Counted from the stretch's first letter, positions 24,901 through 39,900 are shown. The stretch: 64,000 nt of DNA from the human T2T-CHM13v2.0 reference genome, Homo sapiens (GCF_009914755.1 NC_060926.1), one strand, 5' to 3'. Notes: generated from the letters alone by a model not told the origin. Translations and numbers: made by a program.

Positions 24901-27900
24901 AGCGTATCTCCATCAAGACAGGAAGGAGAACAAGATGAAGTACTAGAAATTGTAGGCGCCTGATCACATTGCTAAAACCGGAGGGAAGAAGTGATCGTAA
25001 AAAGCCATAAAAACTATAGAACGAGAAGTAATGAGACCACTGATGTAGTAATTATTTTCCTCAGGGAAGAGGGATTGTGAGGCAGGAAGAAGGGAAAAGA
25101 AGTTATTTATTTAATTTTAGTGTTTCTGCTGAGGAAACCTGAGGGAACTCACTTCAGATGCATTTAGAATGTTTGCATAAAGGAAAATTTGATTTTGGCT
25201 GCTCCTGGAACTACTGGAAGCAGGATAGAGTGCTAGAATTGTGATGAACCACAGTCACCTGTTACCCCTCTTTGTTATTACTGGGCATCAGAGGTATAAG
25301 TTTTGTTGTTATCAGTTAGTCAAATGAGATAAATGTAAATATGCATACATTGGCTTTGTTGTTCAGAGAGCTAACTTTTGGATAAAATAGCAATTTAATG
25401 AAAATACTTTAGAGAATGACATGATCCTTCAAACCAGACTATTTTAGAAACAAAAATAATGTTAAATTCTTTAATTGACACCTAAAATATTTATTTTTAT
25501 TGAATATTGGAGTGATTTCCAAATGGACAACCTTATTCAGATGTAATGCTTGTAGCAACTTTATTTTGTGTAAGTATATCAAATTTGATAATTTTTTATA
25601 CATTTTTATTAGGTTTGTATATTATACCTTGTTCCCATGAGTTACTGACAAAAGTTTCTGAAGGTTAAACCAGAAAATACAAAAGTGTAGGCTCATTATT
25701 ATACCACATGGGTATGAAAAATAATGAATAGCATATAATAGGATTCACCAAACATATATCCAAGCTGACCAATTCAGGACACTTCCACTGAGGAGCTTTG
25801 AATTGTACATTCATCTAAAGTGTAATTGTCATTGTGTACCTGCTGAATTGTCAGGCAAGTCAAAGAGCATGATGAATATTTGTAGTATAATGGTTTAAAT
25901 CCTTCTGATGTCTTGTATGAAAGACATGCGTGATCCTGGCTCACTTCAACTTTCACCTTCTGGGTTCAAGTGATTCTCCTGTCTCAGTCTCCTGAGTAGC
26001 TGAGTTTAGAGGTGTGCACCACCAACCTGGTAATTTTTGTATTTTTACTAGAGACCGGCTTTCGCCATGTTGGCCAGGTTGGTTTCGAACTCCTGACCTC
26101 AAGTTATCCACTCACCTCAGCCTCACAAAGTGCTGGGATTACAGGCGTGACCCACCGAGCCCTGCCTACATGATTTTTTTTTTTAACTTTTTAAAAATAA
26201 AGATAGAGTGTTTCTGTGCTGCCCAAGCTGGTCTGAATTGCCTGGGCTTCTCAAGTGATATTTCTGCCTCAGCCTTTTGAGTAGCTGAGATTATAGGAAC
26301 AAGTCACTGTGCTCTTTTATGTTTTTAATATTTTATAGGTTCCTATTGTTGATTTAAAATGCATTTTACTTTTTGTTTGATAGTGCTTCCTGCTGTTGAA
26401 CAGTGTTTAAACAGGTATGATTTCACAGATTTTTTAAAGTGATATGTTAACTTAGTTAATAGAGAGAATAGAAACTAGTGCCCGTTTAGTGTTCTCCTCT
26501 GTGCTAGACACCGTATTACATGCTTAATATTTATCATGTCATGTCATCTCCACACAGCTTTACAAACTATTTGTGCTATTATTGCTTTTTTACTAATTAG
26601 GCAACTCTGCTTTAAAGAGGTTGAAATATTGGCTCATGATTCCACAGTTAACAGGTAGCCAACCCATGATTTGACCATCATCCTGCCTGGCTCTCTAATC
26701 ACTTCATTTGCCCCTAAGCATAGATGGATACAGACCTATGCAGCAATGCGATCACGGTACTGGTGTAACTCAGATCAATTCAGAAAGTCACATTTTGTTA
26801 TATATTAACTCTCTTTAGAGTATTCCTTAGAAGCCTGGATACTCCAAAACTTTGTCCAAATATTTTGGAAATGGCAGTGGTAACCATATTACTTTTTTTT
26901 TTAACCATCAAAATTTTAAAGGCAGATATCAGTTACCTGTGGCCACAAGACCGTAAGTTTTTTGTAAGCAAGACTAGGCCAGTCCTAGAAAAATATTATT
27001 TTACTGTGCATGGAGAATATCTAAATATAGACCATGTTATGATAACTATATTTAGCATATATTAAAATGATATTTCTAATTCATTTCTCTACTTACTCCC
27101 TACCCAGTTAGGTTTTCTCTTTAAGTGAGTACCCTGCCTAGTTTGCTGAAGCTTTTTCTTATTTTTTGGATTCTTCTTTTTTCCTTCTATGACATTTTAG
27201 TATTTTCTTGATTTCTTTTCACTTTCTCTACCACTTTTCTTAGGGTTTAAGACCTTCTTTTGTAGTTTTCATGTATGGCAGCTAAATATTCCCCATTTTC
27301 CTACAGACACAATCAGAGGTGCTTAGAATTTCAGAATGTTAAGAAATCCTAGAGACTAAACAAAGTATCCTCTAGTGCTTGAATCCTTGCTTAACATCCT
27401 GATCAAGTGGTTGTTCAGGTGGAGAACCTGAAACTCAAAGAGAGAAAATTATTTGGATACAGTAAATCAGAGAAATGAGAATTGCACTCAGGTTTCTTAG
27501 TTCAAAACGCAGTCTTCTTTTACATCATTCTGTCATTGAGTGATTTTAGTTTTAGAAAGAAGGAGTGGCTCTAGTGAACACAGTGGAAGAGGATGAGAAT
27601 GGAATGAGCTGTTGAACCCAATGAAAGTGAATAAGAATGGAATTTGCAGGGGACAGCCAAATTTGAAGAGAAACAAACTCTTAGTTTGATAGAAATGAGG
27701 GTTTTAGGGAAAAATCTGAATATTTGGTTTAATGCAAGTTTGATAAAGATAAGGGAAATGATAACACAGGATGTTGGGAGCTATCAAGAAAGGCATATTA
27801 GAATATGGCATTCAAGGAGTTCTGAAGAGTTTGCTGCCTTTTTGTTTGTTTAACTGGAGGAACTGACAAACTTCAAGGTTTTATTGAAAAATGTTAAAAG

Positions 27901-36900: not shown

Positions 36901-39900
36901 CATGTGTTTTTTGGCTGCATAAATGTCTTCTTTTGAGAAGTGTCTGTTCAAGGACATACATTACTCTTTCGAATTCTGAATAAAAATTCTTTCTCCAGGT
37001 GTTAAGTTGCTGGAATTTTATTGTTTTTTTTTTTTTTTTTTTTTTCCTCTCTCTGTCTCTCTCTCTCTGTTTGTAGTAAGAATGTTTCAGCTTTCAGGTG
37101 AATGATCATGGTTAATTCTTGGGATGTGTTATTTTATAGTAAACAAATTAAACTTTTTATTACATAAGTATTTACACAAAACAAATTGTCGAGTAAATGC
37201 TAACCAGTATTATTAGGCATATATTATGAACACAAGCTTTTCTTTTAAGCTGATATTTGATTGACTGGTCATGTCTCTTTTTTTGTTTGTTTCTCCCTCC
37301 TTCCCCTTTGTTTAAAAATAACTTACCTCAGTCTAATATTTTCCTTGCAGACCGCATGTCTTTAGTGTCTATTCTTTCATTTCACCTCTGTTTCTGTTGT
37401 CAGGATACTTAGTTACAGCTTTCTATTTAGTAACTATGTGTGGCCTTCATTCATGAATCATTGCTCCATAAGGTGGATGGTTGCTTTGTTCTGTCTTTTT
37501 TGGAAGGAGCGGAGGTTATACAATAATTTGTTTTTAGCTTTTGACACACAGAATAGAAGCAACTTACACTGTTTAAAGATAGTACTACTAAAAACTACAT
37601 TCTCACATTTTTTCCCGCAGAAAGTAATTCACACAAATATATATCATGCCTAAGTATTTTGAAAAATAAAGTGATTAATTGACTTTTTATTATTAGTTTT
37701 GTTCAGTCATACTCTAAATTACAGATGAGTAAATTTTTGTCCCAGTTTGTTGTGGTTAATAAAAGAAACTAATGGATATCATAGTATTTGTATAATAATC
37801 AACTGGGGTTGAAAGGAGTAACATTTTGAGAATATCTGTATCACCAATCATAATCATCATCCCATGTGAATATGTAGATAAGTAAATGGCAGACTTGAGG
37901 TTTGAATCTACATATGAGTGACTTCAAAGTCCATCCTTTTTGTGTTAGATCATGTAGTAATGGTGGCAATTATCATTATTTTAACTTGCTGCATGTTATT
38001 CTTAAACCTATTGTGTCTTTCTTCTAGAATATTTCAGAACCATACTTTACAAACAGAAGGACTATTTCTCAACAATCTGCAGAAAAGTGTAAGCTATTTG
38101 AAACCTGACTATTATATTATCTACTGATTCTTTTTTTTCTTTCTTTTTCTTTCTTATTTTTTGTAGACAGAGTGTTACTCAATGTTGCCCAGGCTGGAGT
38201 GCAGTGGCATGATCTTGGGTCACTGCAACTTCCACCTCCTGGGTTCAAGTGATTCTCCTGCCTCAGCCTCCCGAGTAGCTGGGATTACAGGTGTGCACCA
38301 CCACACCTGGCTATTTTTGTATTTTTGGTAGAGATGGAGTTTCACCATGTTGGCCAGGCTGGTCTTGAACACCTGACCTCATATGATCTGCCTGCATCGG
38401 CCCCCCAAACTGCTGGGATTAAAGCTGTGAGCCCCCACACCCGGTTCTTATTTACTGATTCTTAATTACATGCATTTCATCTACTCTTGACTTTGTTTTT
38501 ACTGTAGTAGATGCTGCATGTGGCATTGACAAAACAGAAAATGGAACCTTGTTTGAAGACCAAAATGTTGATAAGGTAAATGAAGATGTGGTTAAAAGCC
38601 AACATAGAATAATCAGAGTCCAGTCCTGTTCACCAACTCACTCTTATCTGTTAATGATCTTTAATTTTACAATGGTAAATTGTTTTATTTGGAAAATAGT
38701 TTTCCCATGCTTTATTCACTTGCCATCTCCCTGTCTTTATAACGATGACAAGGATCCTATAAAGGAATGGAAGTTCTCAAGGTAATAATAGAAAAGAAGT
38801 GTGACAACAAGGGAAATATATGCATGGGACTAGGATTCCTAAAAGGTTGTGGGAGTAAATGATTCTTAGGTTTGCCATTAGGGAAGGAAAGAAGTAGAAA
38901 GCAACCTGAAAGAACAGCTCCACAAATACAAAGGTGAGGAGGGGAAAGAAGTAAGAATACAGAGTTGAATAAGAGTGTCAAGATGACAAAGATTAGTATA
39001 AAACACCTCAAAAGCGGTGAATTTAAATGACAGTAGAATGTCTCCATATCATATTATAGAATTATTTTAAATATAGATTAAGAAAAGAAAGCCAAGTAAT
39101 TAAAAAATTCTCAGATTCTTCTGAGTGACTTACGGGTGATTTTAATAAAGTATTGGAAGAAAATTTATGGGTGACTATATTTAACATTCTGTTTTACATT
39201 TAAAAATAGCCAGGAGAGAATAACTTGAATATTTCTAGTTTAAATAAAACATACATAGTTAAGGTAATGTGTATCTCTGTTACCCTCATTAGATTATATA
39301 GATGGATCAAATCATCACACGTACACTGAAAATATATACATCTATTTATTAATTTAAAAATTCTAAATGGAAAGAAAATTTCATCCTCACTTTTTAAAAT
39401 TTCAGTAAAGTGATGTCTTATATTTTATCTAGTGAATGCTGTGTTCATAGATAATGCAAAATAAAATGTGTTTTAGGCTATATCAGATTTTGAATGAATC
39501 ATTACTTTTTGACTCTTGTTAAAAGTTTTTTAAAGTAATATTTGGTATATTCCTAAGTTGCTTAACTAATTTATTTCACTTTTCCATAATCTTGGAGCTG
39601 TTTTAGCCTTTTTTGATAATAAGAGGGAAAATAAATAATTAAATAATAAAAAATAATAAAAATTAATTTATACATAAATTAATAAAAATTAAAATTTCTG
39701 GTTAATTTTTTTTTTTTTGAGACGGAGTCTCGCTCTGTCTCCCAGGCTGGAGGGCAGTGGGCGATCTCGGCTCACTGCAAGCTCCACCTCCCGGGTTCAC
39801 GCCATTCTCCTGCCTCAGCCTCGCGAGTAGCTGGGACTATAGGCGCCCGCCATCACGCCCGGCTAATTTTTTTTATATTTTTAGTAGAGACGGGGTTTCA

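What the first reader, a model, noticed from the sequence alone, without database searches (positions are those of the whole stretch)
26384..38088. Duplicated exons diverged several-fold faster than their introns, nearly all amino-acid changing
Counted by hand between module copies: 7/31, 11/67 and 16/61 mismatches (34/159, ~21%). Only about 2-3 can be synonymous; in the 67-nt exon 10 of 11 are non-synonymous. A sampled intron stretch (28621-28815 vs ~34032-34226) shows only about 8 differences in ~195 nt (~4%). Frames and splice sites are intact. Inference: strong positive selection after duplication, the exon-faster-than-intron pattern established for primate core-duplicon genes such as NPIP/morpheus. 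This points to a conflict-driven or reproductive function.
Basis: partly seen in the sequence, partly recalled or inferred. Interest (0 to 1): 0.75.

Follow-up and report, generated by a model that had tools for sequence, protein, structure and literature searches.

The report
Fast-diverging duplicated exon cassette in ANKRD36C
A three-exon block of the human gene ANKRD36C was copied in tandem, and its coding parts then changed about three times faster than the non-coding DNA between them, nearly always altering the protein; this signature of a burst of adaptive change is already known from other duplicated primate genes.

Summary
Cassette A (exons 26384-26414, 29197-29263, 31794-31854) and cassette B (32423-32453, 34606-34672, 38028-38088) differ at 34 of 159 exon bases (21.4%). 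Nonsynonymous divergence is 0.30. Synonymous divergence is 0.087, level with the introns. Omega is 3.4 by counting and about 7 by likelihood, p=0.003-0.005. Third codon positions are spared.

The same A/B pair exists in 7 further full copies (chr2:97.65 Mb, chr13/14/15/21/22 short arms, Y) and, in part, in two chr16 copies. So the duplication is old and recent gene conversion does not explain the intron similarity. About 25 of the 34 differences arose on the branch between the duplication and the dispersal of these copies (exon 15.5% vs intron 2.55%, p=3e-12). The stop-bearing pseudogene copies run at an exon/intron ratio near 1.

Caveats: the exons are small, only 36.5 synonymous sites are available, the outer edges of the unit are also more diverged, and no primate orthologues could be used.

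Best reading: an episodic burst of positive selection after an in-frame tandem duplication. It is a new, well-supported member of a known kind. The proposed conflict or reproductive function was not tested.

The parts
26384..26414 (+). Cassette A, exon 1 (31 nt; starts at codon position 2)
   Evidence: Annotation plus AG/GT sites and frame. 7/31 differences from B exon 1.
29197..29263 (+). Cassette A, exon 2 (67 nt)
   Evidence: 11/67 differences from B exon 2. Its last 20 nt are identical in A and B (profile). 7 fixed A|B differences against 1/199 in the +-100 nt flanks.
31794..31854 (+). Cassette A, exon 3 (61 nt)
   Evidence: 16/61 differences from B exon 3. No 61-nt intron window reaches 16 (0 of 4590). 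No homologue was detected in distant family loci.
32423..32453 (+). Cassette B, exon 1
   Evidence: Aligned without gaps to A exon 1.
34606..34672 (+). Cassette B, exon 2
   Evidence: Aligned without gaps to A exon 2.
38028..38088 (+). Cassette B, exon 3
   Evidence: Aligned without gaps to A exon 3.
26415..31793 (+). Internal introns of cassette A, used as the neutral reference (with 32454-38027 in B)
   Evidence: 310/4650 aligned bases differ (6.7%). Divergence is flat with distance from the exons (5.0-9.0% per bin). Over 46 windows of 100 nt the mean is 6.7 and the variance 8.8.
27664..28275 (+). 612-bp stretch present only in A
   Evidence: Gap in B in the pairwise alignment. The stretch is present in the distant family loci, so it is a deletion in B. 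It is missing from all B copies in the 16-module alignment.
36127..36950 (+). 824-bp stretch present only in B of the two chr2 genes (masked as repeat in the hub table)
   Evidence: Gap in A. Absent from the acrocentric, Y and chr16 B copies. A segment about 81% similar lies at the collinear place in the chr9/chr18 family loci.
25951..26159 (.). Interspersed repeat at the left edge of the duplication unit
   Evidence: Masked in the hub table. It matches many places in the family loci and is only 67-77% like the repeats at 31951-32209.
31948..32340 (.). Interspersed repeat in the junction intron between A and B
   Evidence: Masked in the hub table. Positions 31951-32082 are 92% like 38187-38318 (family D1).
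38120..38445 (.). Interspersed repeat at the right edge of the unit
   Evidence: Masked in the hub table; repeat families D1 and D10.
27378..27669 (+). Tract 99% identical to 33417-33708 (candidate local conversion tract)
   Evidence: family D2. 7 mismatches in 314 aligned bases over 27349-27663, against 6.7% elsewhere.

Best explanation
An in-frame tandem duplication of about 6 kb copied a three-exon, 53-codon cassette inside an ancestor of the ANKRD36 genes. It probably arose by unequal exchange between the interspersed repeats that flank the unit. The protein thereby gained a second copy of a short module.

In the interval between the duplication and the spread of the gene to other chromosomes, about 25 substitutions were fixed in 159 exon bases where about 4 were expected. 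Nearly all changed an amino acid. A short acidic/aromatic core at the end of exon 2 stayed unchanged. This is an episodic burst of positive selection that made the two modules different (neo- or sub-functionalisation of a repeated protein module). A smaller second pulse may have followed in cassette B of the chr2 genes.

Since then the cassette has evolved at about the neutral rate.

Shown: the duplication, its age relative to the paralogues, the exon-limited and codon-aware excess, and the branch on which it lies. Inferred: that selection on the protein caused it, and the unequal-exchange origin. Unknown: what the module binds or does.
For: 1. Exons differ at 34/159 and internal introns at 310/4650, p=3.4e-9, with 0 of 100000 random placements as extreme.
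2. Nei-Gojobori counts give 30 nonsynonymous differences on 122.5 sites and 3 synonymous on 36.5 sites. dN is 0.296, dS 0.087, omega 3.4. N vs intron p=1e-9; S vs intron p=0.73; N vs S p=0.037. A pairwise codon-likelihood script of my own gives omega 6.7-7.5 and rejects omega=1, with LRT 7.7-8.9 and p=0.003-0.005.
3. Differences by codon position are 17/11/5. The third-position deficit has p=0.017, so the excess follows the reading frame.
4. All 8 full loci carry both cassettes, with exon divergence 19.5-23.3% and intron divergence 6.7-7.4%.
5. Parsimony on a 6-taxon tree places 24.7 exon changes (15.5%) against 115.2/4525 intron changes (2.55%) on the A-B stem, a ratio of 6.1 with p=3e-12. 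On that stem pN is 0.17-0.18 and pS is 0.04-0.07.
6. Internal neutral control: the acrocentric/Y copies carry a stop codon in A exon 3, and their branches have exon/intron ratios of 1.0 and 1.55, not significant.
7. Same-gene control: in 36 pairs of the neighbouring 29+73-nt tandem exon units the median ratio is 0.83 and the maximum 1.56.
8. The excess is not due to CpG sites (4 of 34 exon differences are in CpG context). It is not due to adjacent multi-base events alone: after merging adjacent changes the ratio is 2.85, p=2.6e-6.
9. Boundaries are sharp at exon 2: 0/92 fixed differences in the +-46 nt flanks against 7/67 in the exon.
Against: - The sample is small. There are 36.5 synonymous sites with 3 differences, so the direct N vs S count test gives only p=0.037.
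- My likelihood model forbids multi-base changes, and that is known to inflate omega. Exons hold 7 adjacent-change clusters.
- The outer edges of the unit, which are non-coding, are also more diverged. 26197-26290 has 10.6% fixed differences, 31855-31900 has 9.5% and 31901-31950 has 22.7%. Local neutral rates are therefore not uniform. With +-100 nt flanks exon 3 alone is not significant (p=0.06-0.13) and exon 1 is marginal.
- Changes could not be polarised reliably with the distant family loci.
- No orthologues from other primates, no population data and no evidence of translation were available.
- The six cassette exons differ from the chr2:97.6 Mb paralogue at the same rate as their flanks (7/318 vs 107/4775). 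Nothing shows selection acting now.
Confidence: 0.65

Rival explanations
1. Old exons, young introns. The duplication is much older than 7% divergence suggests. Before the copies dispersed, gene conversion between A and B homogenised the introns, while conversion of the exons was prevented or selected against.
For: One tract of about 300 nt (27378-27669) is 99% identical between A and B, so some conversion has occurred. The unit's edges are more diverged than its interior, as would be expected if only the interior had been reset. Eight intron sites show a conversion-like pattern.
Against: Synonymous divergence (0.087) and third-position divergence (5/53) match the introns rather than the 21-25% of the other exon sites. 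Intron divergence is nearly Poisson-uniform over 46 windows, with mean 6.7 and variance 8.8. Conversion would have to skip three exons of 31-67 nt with sharp edges, yet the +-46 nt around exon 2 hold 0/92 fixed differences. The distant family loci hold a single cassette.
Confidence: 0.1
2. No adaptive change. Constraint on a disordered, dispensable protein segment was relaxed, and this combined with locally raised or clustered mutation (multi-nucleotide events, patchy neutral rate near the unit's edges).
For: Non-coding edges of the unit reach 10-23% fixed differences. Exons show 7 clusters of adjacent changes. Against distant family loci exons 1+2 are also more diverged than the introns, 42-54% vs 29-34%. 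This could reflect a locally mutable sequence, and the alignments at that distance are uncertain. The exons are small.
Against: Relaxation alone gives an exon/intron ratio of 1, which is what the stop-bearing copies show (1.0-1.55). After merging adjacent changes the ratio is still 2.85, p=2.6e-6. A mutational cause would not spare third codon positions (p=0.017). It would not spare the last 20 nt of exon 2, and it would not stop at the splice sites of exon 2. The excess is confined to one old branch rather than spread over all branches.
Confidence: 0.15
3. Selection at the nucleotide or RNA level rather than on the protein. The two exon sets would have diverged to keep their splicing distinct, or to suppress recombination or back-splicing between tandem repeats.
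For: Flanks within about 100 nt of exon 3 and upstream of exon 1 are mildly raised (5.6-9.5% fixed, against 2.55% in the interior). Circular RNAs from ANKRD36C are reported (title and abstract in the listing only).
Against: The changes avoid third codon positions and synonymous sites, which RNA-level selection would not do. The first 20 intron bases next to the exons are not raised (4/80). The neighbouring 29+73-nt tandem exons show no such divergence.
Confidence: 0.05

Closest known systems
NPIP (morpheus) and other positively selected genes of primate segmental duplications (exons faster than introns)
   Same: A multi-copy primate gene family dispersed to several chromosomes. Exon divergence is several-fold above intron divergence, nearly all of it amino-acid changing, with omega >1. 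Lorente-Galdos et al. 2013 (PMC3906575, passages read) use exactly this exon-versus-intron test and name ANKRD36B beside NPIP and GYPA as a highly duplicated gene with accelerated exons.
   Different: Here the two diverging units are tandem cassettes inside one gene, not gene copies or orthologues. Only 159 coding bases are involved. The acceleration is an old burst. Most other exons of the window are not accelerated between the chr2 paralogues (29/1548 for all but the three ankyrin exons, derived). I recall no listing of ANKRD36 among the core duplicons (memory only). That paper excluded families with tandem protein domains, so this cassette may not have been assessable there. Its supplementary exon list could not be opened.
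Tandem exon duplication within genes (the usual route to repeated protein modules or mutually exclusive exons; literature recalled, not read here)
   Same: An in-frame duplication of a block of exons (159 nt = 53 codons) with intact splice sites, followed by divergence of the copies.
   Different: A block of three exons was copied rather than a single exon. Both copies are included in series in the selected RefSeq transcript, so as annotated they are not mutually exclusive. Divergence exceeds the neutral rate, which is not a general feature of duplicated exons; the 29+73-nt units of the same gene show exon <= intron.
The wider family of ankyrin-repeat genes related to ANKRD36 (loci on chr9, chr18, chr7 and chr16 at about 70% identity; I take them to be ANKRD20A/ANKRD30B-like from memory of map positions only)
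   Same: These loci hold a collinear homologue of exons 1 and 2 with their introns (about 68-70% identity over about 5 kb). The acidic/aromatic end of exon 2 is recognisable in them.
   Different: They hold one cassette, not two. No homologue of exon 3 was detected.

Membership tests
Positively selected segmental-duplication genes with exon > intron divergence (NPIP/morpheus type) | The gene lies in dispersed, high-identity primate duplications | tested here: met
   Copies at 90-98% identity on chr2 (97.65 Mb; 98.04 Mb for the ankyrin part), chr13, 14, 15, 21, 22, 16 (two) and Y.
Positively selected segmental-duplication genes with exon > intron divergence (NPIP/morpheus type) | Exon divergence significantly above that of the adjoining introns | tested here: met
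   34/159 vs 310/4650, p=3.4e-9. Against +-100 nt flanks, 34/159 vs 68/599, p=0.0012. The same holds in all 8 loci.
Positively selected segmental-duplication genes with exon > intron divergence (NPIP/morpheus type) | dN/dS above 1 | tested here: met
   Omega is 3.4 by Nei-Gojobori counting (N vs S p=0.037). Pairwise likelihood gives omega 6.7-7.5, p=0.003-0.005. Small sample; multi-base changes are not modelled.
Positively selected segmental-duplication genes with exon > intron divergence (NPIP/morpheus type) | Acceleration shown between orthologues or copies across primate species, placed on a dated lineage | not testable with these tools
   No primate genome other than the window's own is held. 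Only relative dating by human paralogues was possible.
Positively selected segmental-duplication genes with exon > intron divergence (NPIP/morpheus type) | Acceleration spread over the gene's coding exons | tested here: not met
   Between ANKRD36C and the chr2:97.6 Mb paralogue all 33 exons give 52/1861 vs 613/25782 (p=0.27). Only the three ankyrin exons stand out, at 23/313 vs 41/2397. The 29+73-nt units have exon <= intron.
Tandem exon duplication giving mutually exclusive exons | Duplicated units equal in length and frame-preserving | tested here: met
   31+67+61 nt in both cassettes, with the same phases.
Tandem exon duplication giving mutually exclusive exons | Only one of the copies is included in any transcript | not testable with these tools
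   The selected RefSeq transcript in the hub table includes both cassettes in series. No RNA data are held.

The most novel reading that the evidence does not exclude
ANKRD36C and its relatives are targets of recurrent, module-by-module adaptive change tied to a male germ-line role. There was an old burst in the duplicated cassette and a recent one in the ankyrin-repeat exons (23/313 vs 41/2397 between the two chr2 genes). This would fit the reported testis and spermatid expression and the reported male-female allele-frequency signal at this gene. The two cassettes would then be diverged binding sites for different, fast-evolving partners.
Probability: 0.12. Interest if true: 0.75.

Novelty: new member of a known kind. 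Interest (0 to 1): 0.42.

Why it matters
ANKRD36C belongs to a poorly understood, primate-expanded gene family with no known molecular function. This result points to the 53-residue cassette, with its unchanged acidic/aromatic core and rapidly changed surroundings, as a place where function was selected. That gives a concrete target for binding and deletion experiments.

It is also a clean worked case. Pseudogene copies of the same segment on the acrocentric arms and the Y serve as a neutral control within one genome, and they allow a burst of exon change to be placed on one branch without any other species. As a phenomenon it is not new. Exon-faster-than-intron evolution in duplicated primate genes has been in print since NPIP, and the ANKRD36 family has been flagged once (PMC3906575).

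Tried and rejected
- Polarising the A/B differences with distant family loci. The exons are 42-54% diverged there and the result depends on which cassette guides the alignment. With the A-guided projection the outgroup states match A 26 times, B 6 times and neither 23 times. With the B-guided projection the single outgroup recovered for exon 2 matched mostly B. I judged this unreliable and did not use it.
- The two chr16 copies were examined to split the long branches. They lie at about the same depth as the acrocentric copies (about 94-95% identity) and lack A exon 3 and B exon 1, so they did not help.
I stopped, so no domain or family search of the cassette protein was made. Single exons encode at most 22 residues, too short for the protein tools.
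- CpG decay as a cause is rejected: 4 of 34 exon differences are in CpG context.
- Recent gene conversion of the introns as a cause is rejected.
- Literature: four searches (terms ANKRD36/ANKRD36B/ANKRD36C with 'positive selection', 'segmental duplication', 'gene family', 'expansion', 'great ape') found only PMC3906575 treating the family's sequence evolution. None describes this cassette. A fifth search was rejected for a badly formed term.
The third chr2 paralogue was therefore not aligned.
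Full report
**What is there**

The hub's gene table places the window in ANKRD36C, on the + strand. Exons 26384-26414, 29197-29263 and 31794-31854 form cassette A. Exons 32423-32453, 34606-34672 and 38028-38088 form cassette B. They have the same lengths (31, 67, 61 nt), and all six keep AG/GT splice sites. The annotated exons of the window concatenate to one open frame, with 40 and 39 stops in the other two frames, and the two cassettes enter at the same codon phases. 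Each adds 53 codons in frame.

Repeat finding and a MAFFT alignment show that the two cassettes lie in a tandem duplication of about 6 kb. It is alignable throughout except for two stretches: 612 bp found only in A (27664-28275) and 824 bp found only in B (36127-36950). Interspersed repeats (masked in the hub table) lie at the left edge, in the junction intron and at the right edge. Unequal exchange between such repeats is therefore a plausible origin. This is an inference.

**Check of the observation**

It is a low sample, though. The two internal introns differ at 310 of 4650 aligned bases (6.7%).

The contrast is therefore 3.2-fold, with Fisher p=3.4e-9. None of 100000 random placements of three windows of the exon lengths in the introns reached 34 mismatches (maximum 28). 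Intron divergence does not depend on distance from the exons: the distance bins give 5.0, 6.7, 9.0, 6.5, 7.1 and 6.4%. It is close to Poisson over 46 windows of 100 nt, with mean 6.7 and variance 8.8.

**Coding signature**

- In the annotated frame there are 30 nonsynonymous differences on 122.5 sites and 3 synonymous on 36.5 sites. This gives dN 0.296, dS 0.087 and omega 3.4.
- The nonsynonymous rate exceeds the intron rate (p=1e-9). The synonymous rate does not differ from it (p=0.73). N against S gives p=0.037.
- A pairwise codon-likelihood script of my own gives omega 6.7-7.5 and rejects omega=1 (LRT 7.7-8.9, p=0.003-0.005). The caveat is that it does not allow multi-base changes.
- Differences fall 17, 11 and 5 on codon positions 1, 2 and 3. 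The third-position deficit has p=0.017.
- Only 28 of 53 residues are shared.
- The last 20 nt of exon 2, an acidic/aromatic stretch, are identical in A and B.
- CpG context accounts for 4 of the 34 differences.
- After adjacent changes are merged into single events, the ratio is still 2.85, p=2.6e-6.

**When it happened**

The window's own genome could be searched. Both cassettes occur together at chr2:97.65 Mb (by map position I take this to be ANKRD36; recalled, not checked) and on chr13, 14, 15, 21, 22 and Y. Two chr16 copies have lost A exon 3 and B exon 1 through a 3.08-kb deletion. A third chr2 paralogue at 98.04 Mb has the ankyrin exons but no cassette.

Intron distances are about 1.5-2% between the two chr2 genes, about 4.5-5% between the chr2 and acrocentric/Y copies, and about 7% between A and B. 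The duplication therefore predates all dispersal. A-B divergence is 19.5-23.3% in exons and 6.7-7.4% in introns in each of the 8 full loci. In a quartet of modules, 114 intron sites support the A|B split, 8 show a conversion-like pattern and 1 shows the third pattern.

The acrocentric and Y copies share a stop codon in A exon 3, so they serve as a neutral control. Parsimony on a six-taxon tree gives the following:

| Branch | Exon changes | Intron changes | Ratio | p |
|---|---|---|---|---|
| A-B stem | 24.7 (15.5%) | 115.2/4525 (2.55%) | 6.1 | 3e-12 |
| Stem of cassette B in the chr2 genes | 7 | 72.5 | 2.75 | 0.018 |
| Pseudogene branches | not restated | not restated | 1.0 and 1.55 | not significant |

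- The four chr2 tips together carry 7 exon changes.
- On the A-B stem, pN is 0.17-0.18 and pS is 0.04-0.07.
- About 21 excess substitutions were therefore fixed early.
- Since the two chr2 genes split, the cassette exons differ at 7/318 against 107/4775 in their flanks, a ratio of 1.0.

Using remembered primate divergences (human-macaque about 6-7%), the duplication would be roughly as old as the catarrhine ancestor. This is only an inference.

**Controls within the gene**

Nine alignable 29+73-nt tandem exon units in the same window were compared in all 36 pairs. The median exon/intron ratio is 0.83 and the maximum 1.56. Without the odd unit at 57655-57850, 28 pairs give a median of 0.71 and only 2 exceed 1. 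The pattern is therefore specific to the cassette and not a property of tandem exons in this gene.

**Results that weaken the case**

- The outer, non-coding edges of the unit are more diverged than its interior. Fixed A|B differences are 10.6% in 26197-26290, 5.6% in 26291-26383, 9.5% in 31855-31900 and 22.7% in 31901-31950, where a masked repeat begins.
- The 187 nt upstream of A exon 1 are about 4-6 points further from four of the five distinct distant family loci compared over similar lengths than the matching stretch before B. The fifth locus (L030) aligned only 64 nt of the A stretch.
- With immediate flanks as the reference, the total excess remains: fixed differences 23/159 vs 9/265 (+-46 nt, p=4e-5), vs 30/582 (+-100 nt, p=1.6e-4) and vs 49/1153 (+-200 nt, p=4e-6).
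- Exon by exon, only exon 2 is robust (p=3e-4 to 2e-3). Exon 3 ranges from p=0.002 to 0.06, and exon 1 is marginal (p=0.08-0.12).
- Synonymous sites are few.
- Polarisation by outgroups failed.

**Deeper relatives**

Six loci on chr9 (two), chr18 (two), chr7 and chr16 hold a single collinear homologue of the cassette, at about 68-70% identity over about 5 kb of intron. They have no second copy within the 10 kb fetched and no detectable exon 3. In the five that were aligned, exons 1+2 are again more diverged than the introns: 41-53 of 98 (42-54%) against 29-34%, p=3e-5 to 5e-3. Alignments at that distance are uncertain, and some of these loci may be pseudogenes.

**Interpretation**

The best reading is an episodic burst of positive selection on the amino-acid sequence after an in-frame tandem duplication. 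It left two diverged modules around a conserved core. I give this 0.65.

The rivals are:
- Old exons with introns homogenised before dispersal (0.10). Intron-level synonymous and third-position divergence, and the sharp exon-2 edges, argue against it.
- Relaxed constraint plus patchy or clustered mutation (0.15). The diverged edges favour it. The frame-aware pattern, the neutral pseudogene branches and the single-branch concentration argue against it.
- Selection at the RNA level (0.05).

**Relation to what is known**

The pattern is the one established for NPIP and used as a genome-wide test by Lorente-Galdos et al. 2013. That paper names ANKRD36B among highly duplicated genes with accelerated exons (PMC3906575, passages read; supplements closed). 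It removed families with tandem protein domains, so this intragenic cassette may not have been assessed. Four literature searches found no description of it.

On function, a preprint (10.64898/2026.01.06.698007, passages read) states testis and late-spermatid expression and reports a male-female allele-frequency signal at ANKRD36C. A sperm-sequencing paper (PMC13125504, passages read) lists it only as a candidate.

**Verdict**

This is a new, well-documented member of a known kind, of moderate interest.

Noticed in passing
window 834-940, 2411-2548, 5007-5074: Between ANKRD36C and the chr2:97.6 Mb paralogue, the three ankyrin-repeat exons differ at 23/313 bases (7.3%) against 41/2397 (1.7%) in their +-400 nt flanks, p=2e-7. 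Twenty differences are nonsynonymous and 3 synonymous (pN 0.082, pS 0.045). This is a recent exon-faster-than-intron signal in another part of the gene. It was not polarised with the third paralogue at chr2:98.04 Mb, which is 98% like the window here.
   Followed up: partly
G000:C24 (Y) 62.04-62.05 Mb and 27.23-27.25 Mb; window 2211-2748 and 26250-38088: The Y chromosome of this assembly carries copies 94-95% identical to parts of the gene. A preprint reports ANKRD36C as its best case of male-female allele-frequency divergence and could not rule out mismapping. Y-linked copies like these could produce such a signal if they are missing from the reference used.
   Followed up: no
window 20653-24609 and 53935-63469: In the 29+73-nt tandem exon units the exons are less diverged than the introns. 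For example, units at 61392 and 63282 differ at 2/102 exon bases but 200/1503 (13.3%) intron bases. The unit at 57655-57850 is an outlier, with 24-29/102 exon differences from every other unit.
   Followed up: partly
window 36127-36950: The 824-bp B-only segment (masked repeat) is absent from cassette A and from the B copies on the acrocentric arms, Y and chr16. Yet a segment about 81% similar lies at the collinear position in the chr9/chr18 family loci, whose flanks are only about 69% similar. The origin is unexplained: a shared old insertion with several losses, or an exchange between loci.
   Followed up: no
L025, L026 (G000:C16 33.91 Mb and 35.31 Mb): Both chr16 copies join cassette A at window-equivalent 30455 to cassette B at 33537. 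This 3.08-kb deletion removes A exon 3 and B exon 1.
   Followed up: yes
L013-L024 (chr13, 14, 15, 21, 22, Y), equivalent of window 31794-31854: All six acrocentric/Y copies share an in-frame TGA in A exon 3 and are nearly identical to one another (0-0.5% between chr14 and chr15; about 1-2% to Y).
   Followed up: yes
window 26197-26383 and 31855-31950: The non-coding edges of the duplication unit are more diverged between A and B than its interior (5.6-22.7% fixed differences against 2.55%). The stretch before A exon 1 is about 4-6 points further than the stretch before B from four of the five distinct distant family loci compared over similar lengths. Unexplained.
   Followed up: partly
window 31794-31854 / 38028-38088: Exon 3 of the cassette has no detectable homologue in six distant family loci that do align to exons 1 and 2 and about 5 kb of intron. 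It may be an exon specific to the ANKRD36 lineage.
   Followed up: no
G000:C6:33704465-33704598: A 134-nt match at 92% that covers essentially only the exon 2411-2548 and not its introns. It looks like part of a processed copy.
   Followed up: no
window 832-833: The two bases directly before exon 834-940 (the acceptor position) both differ in the chr2:97.6 Mb paralogue (profile). That copy may use another exon boundary.
   Followed up: no
window 29216 and 31795: At two homologous codons, the chr2 copies of A and of B each changed independently, and to different bases, from a state shared by the acrocentric A and B copies. This is either recurrent change at the same residue or an undetected conversion.
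   Followed up: no
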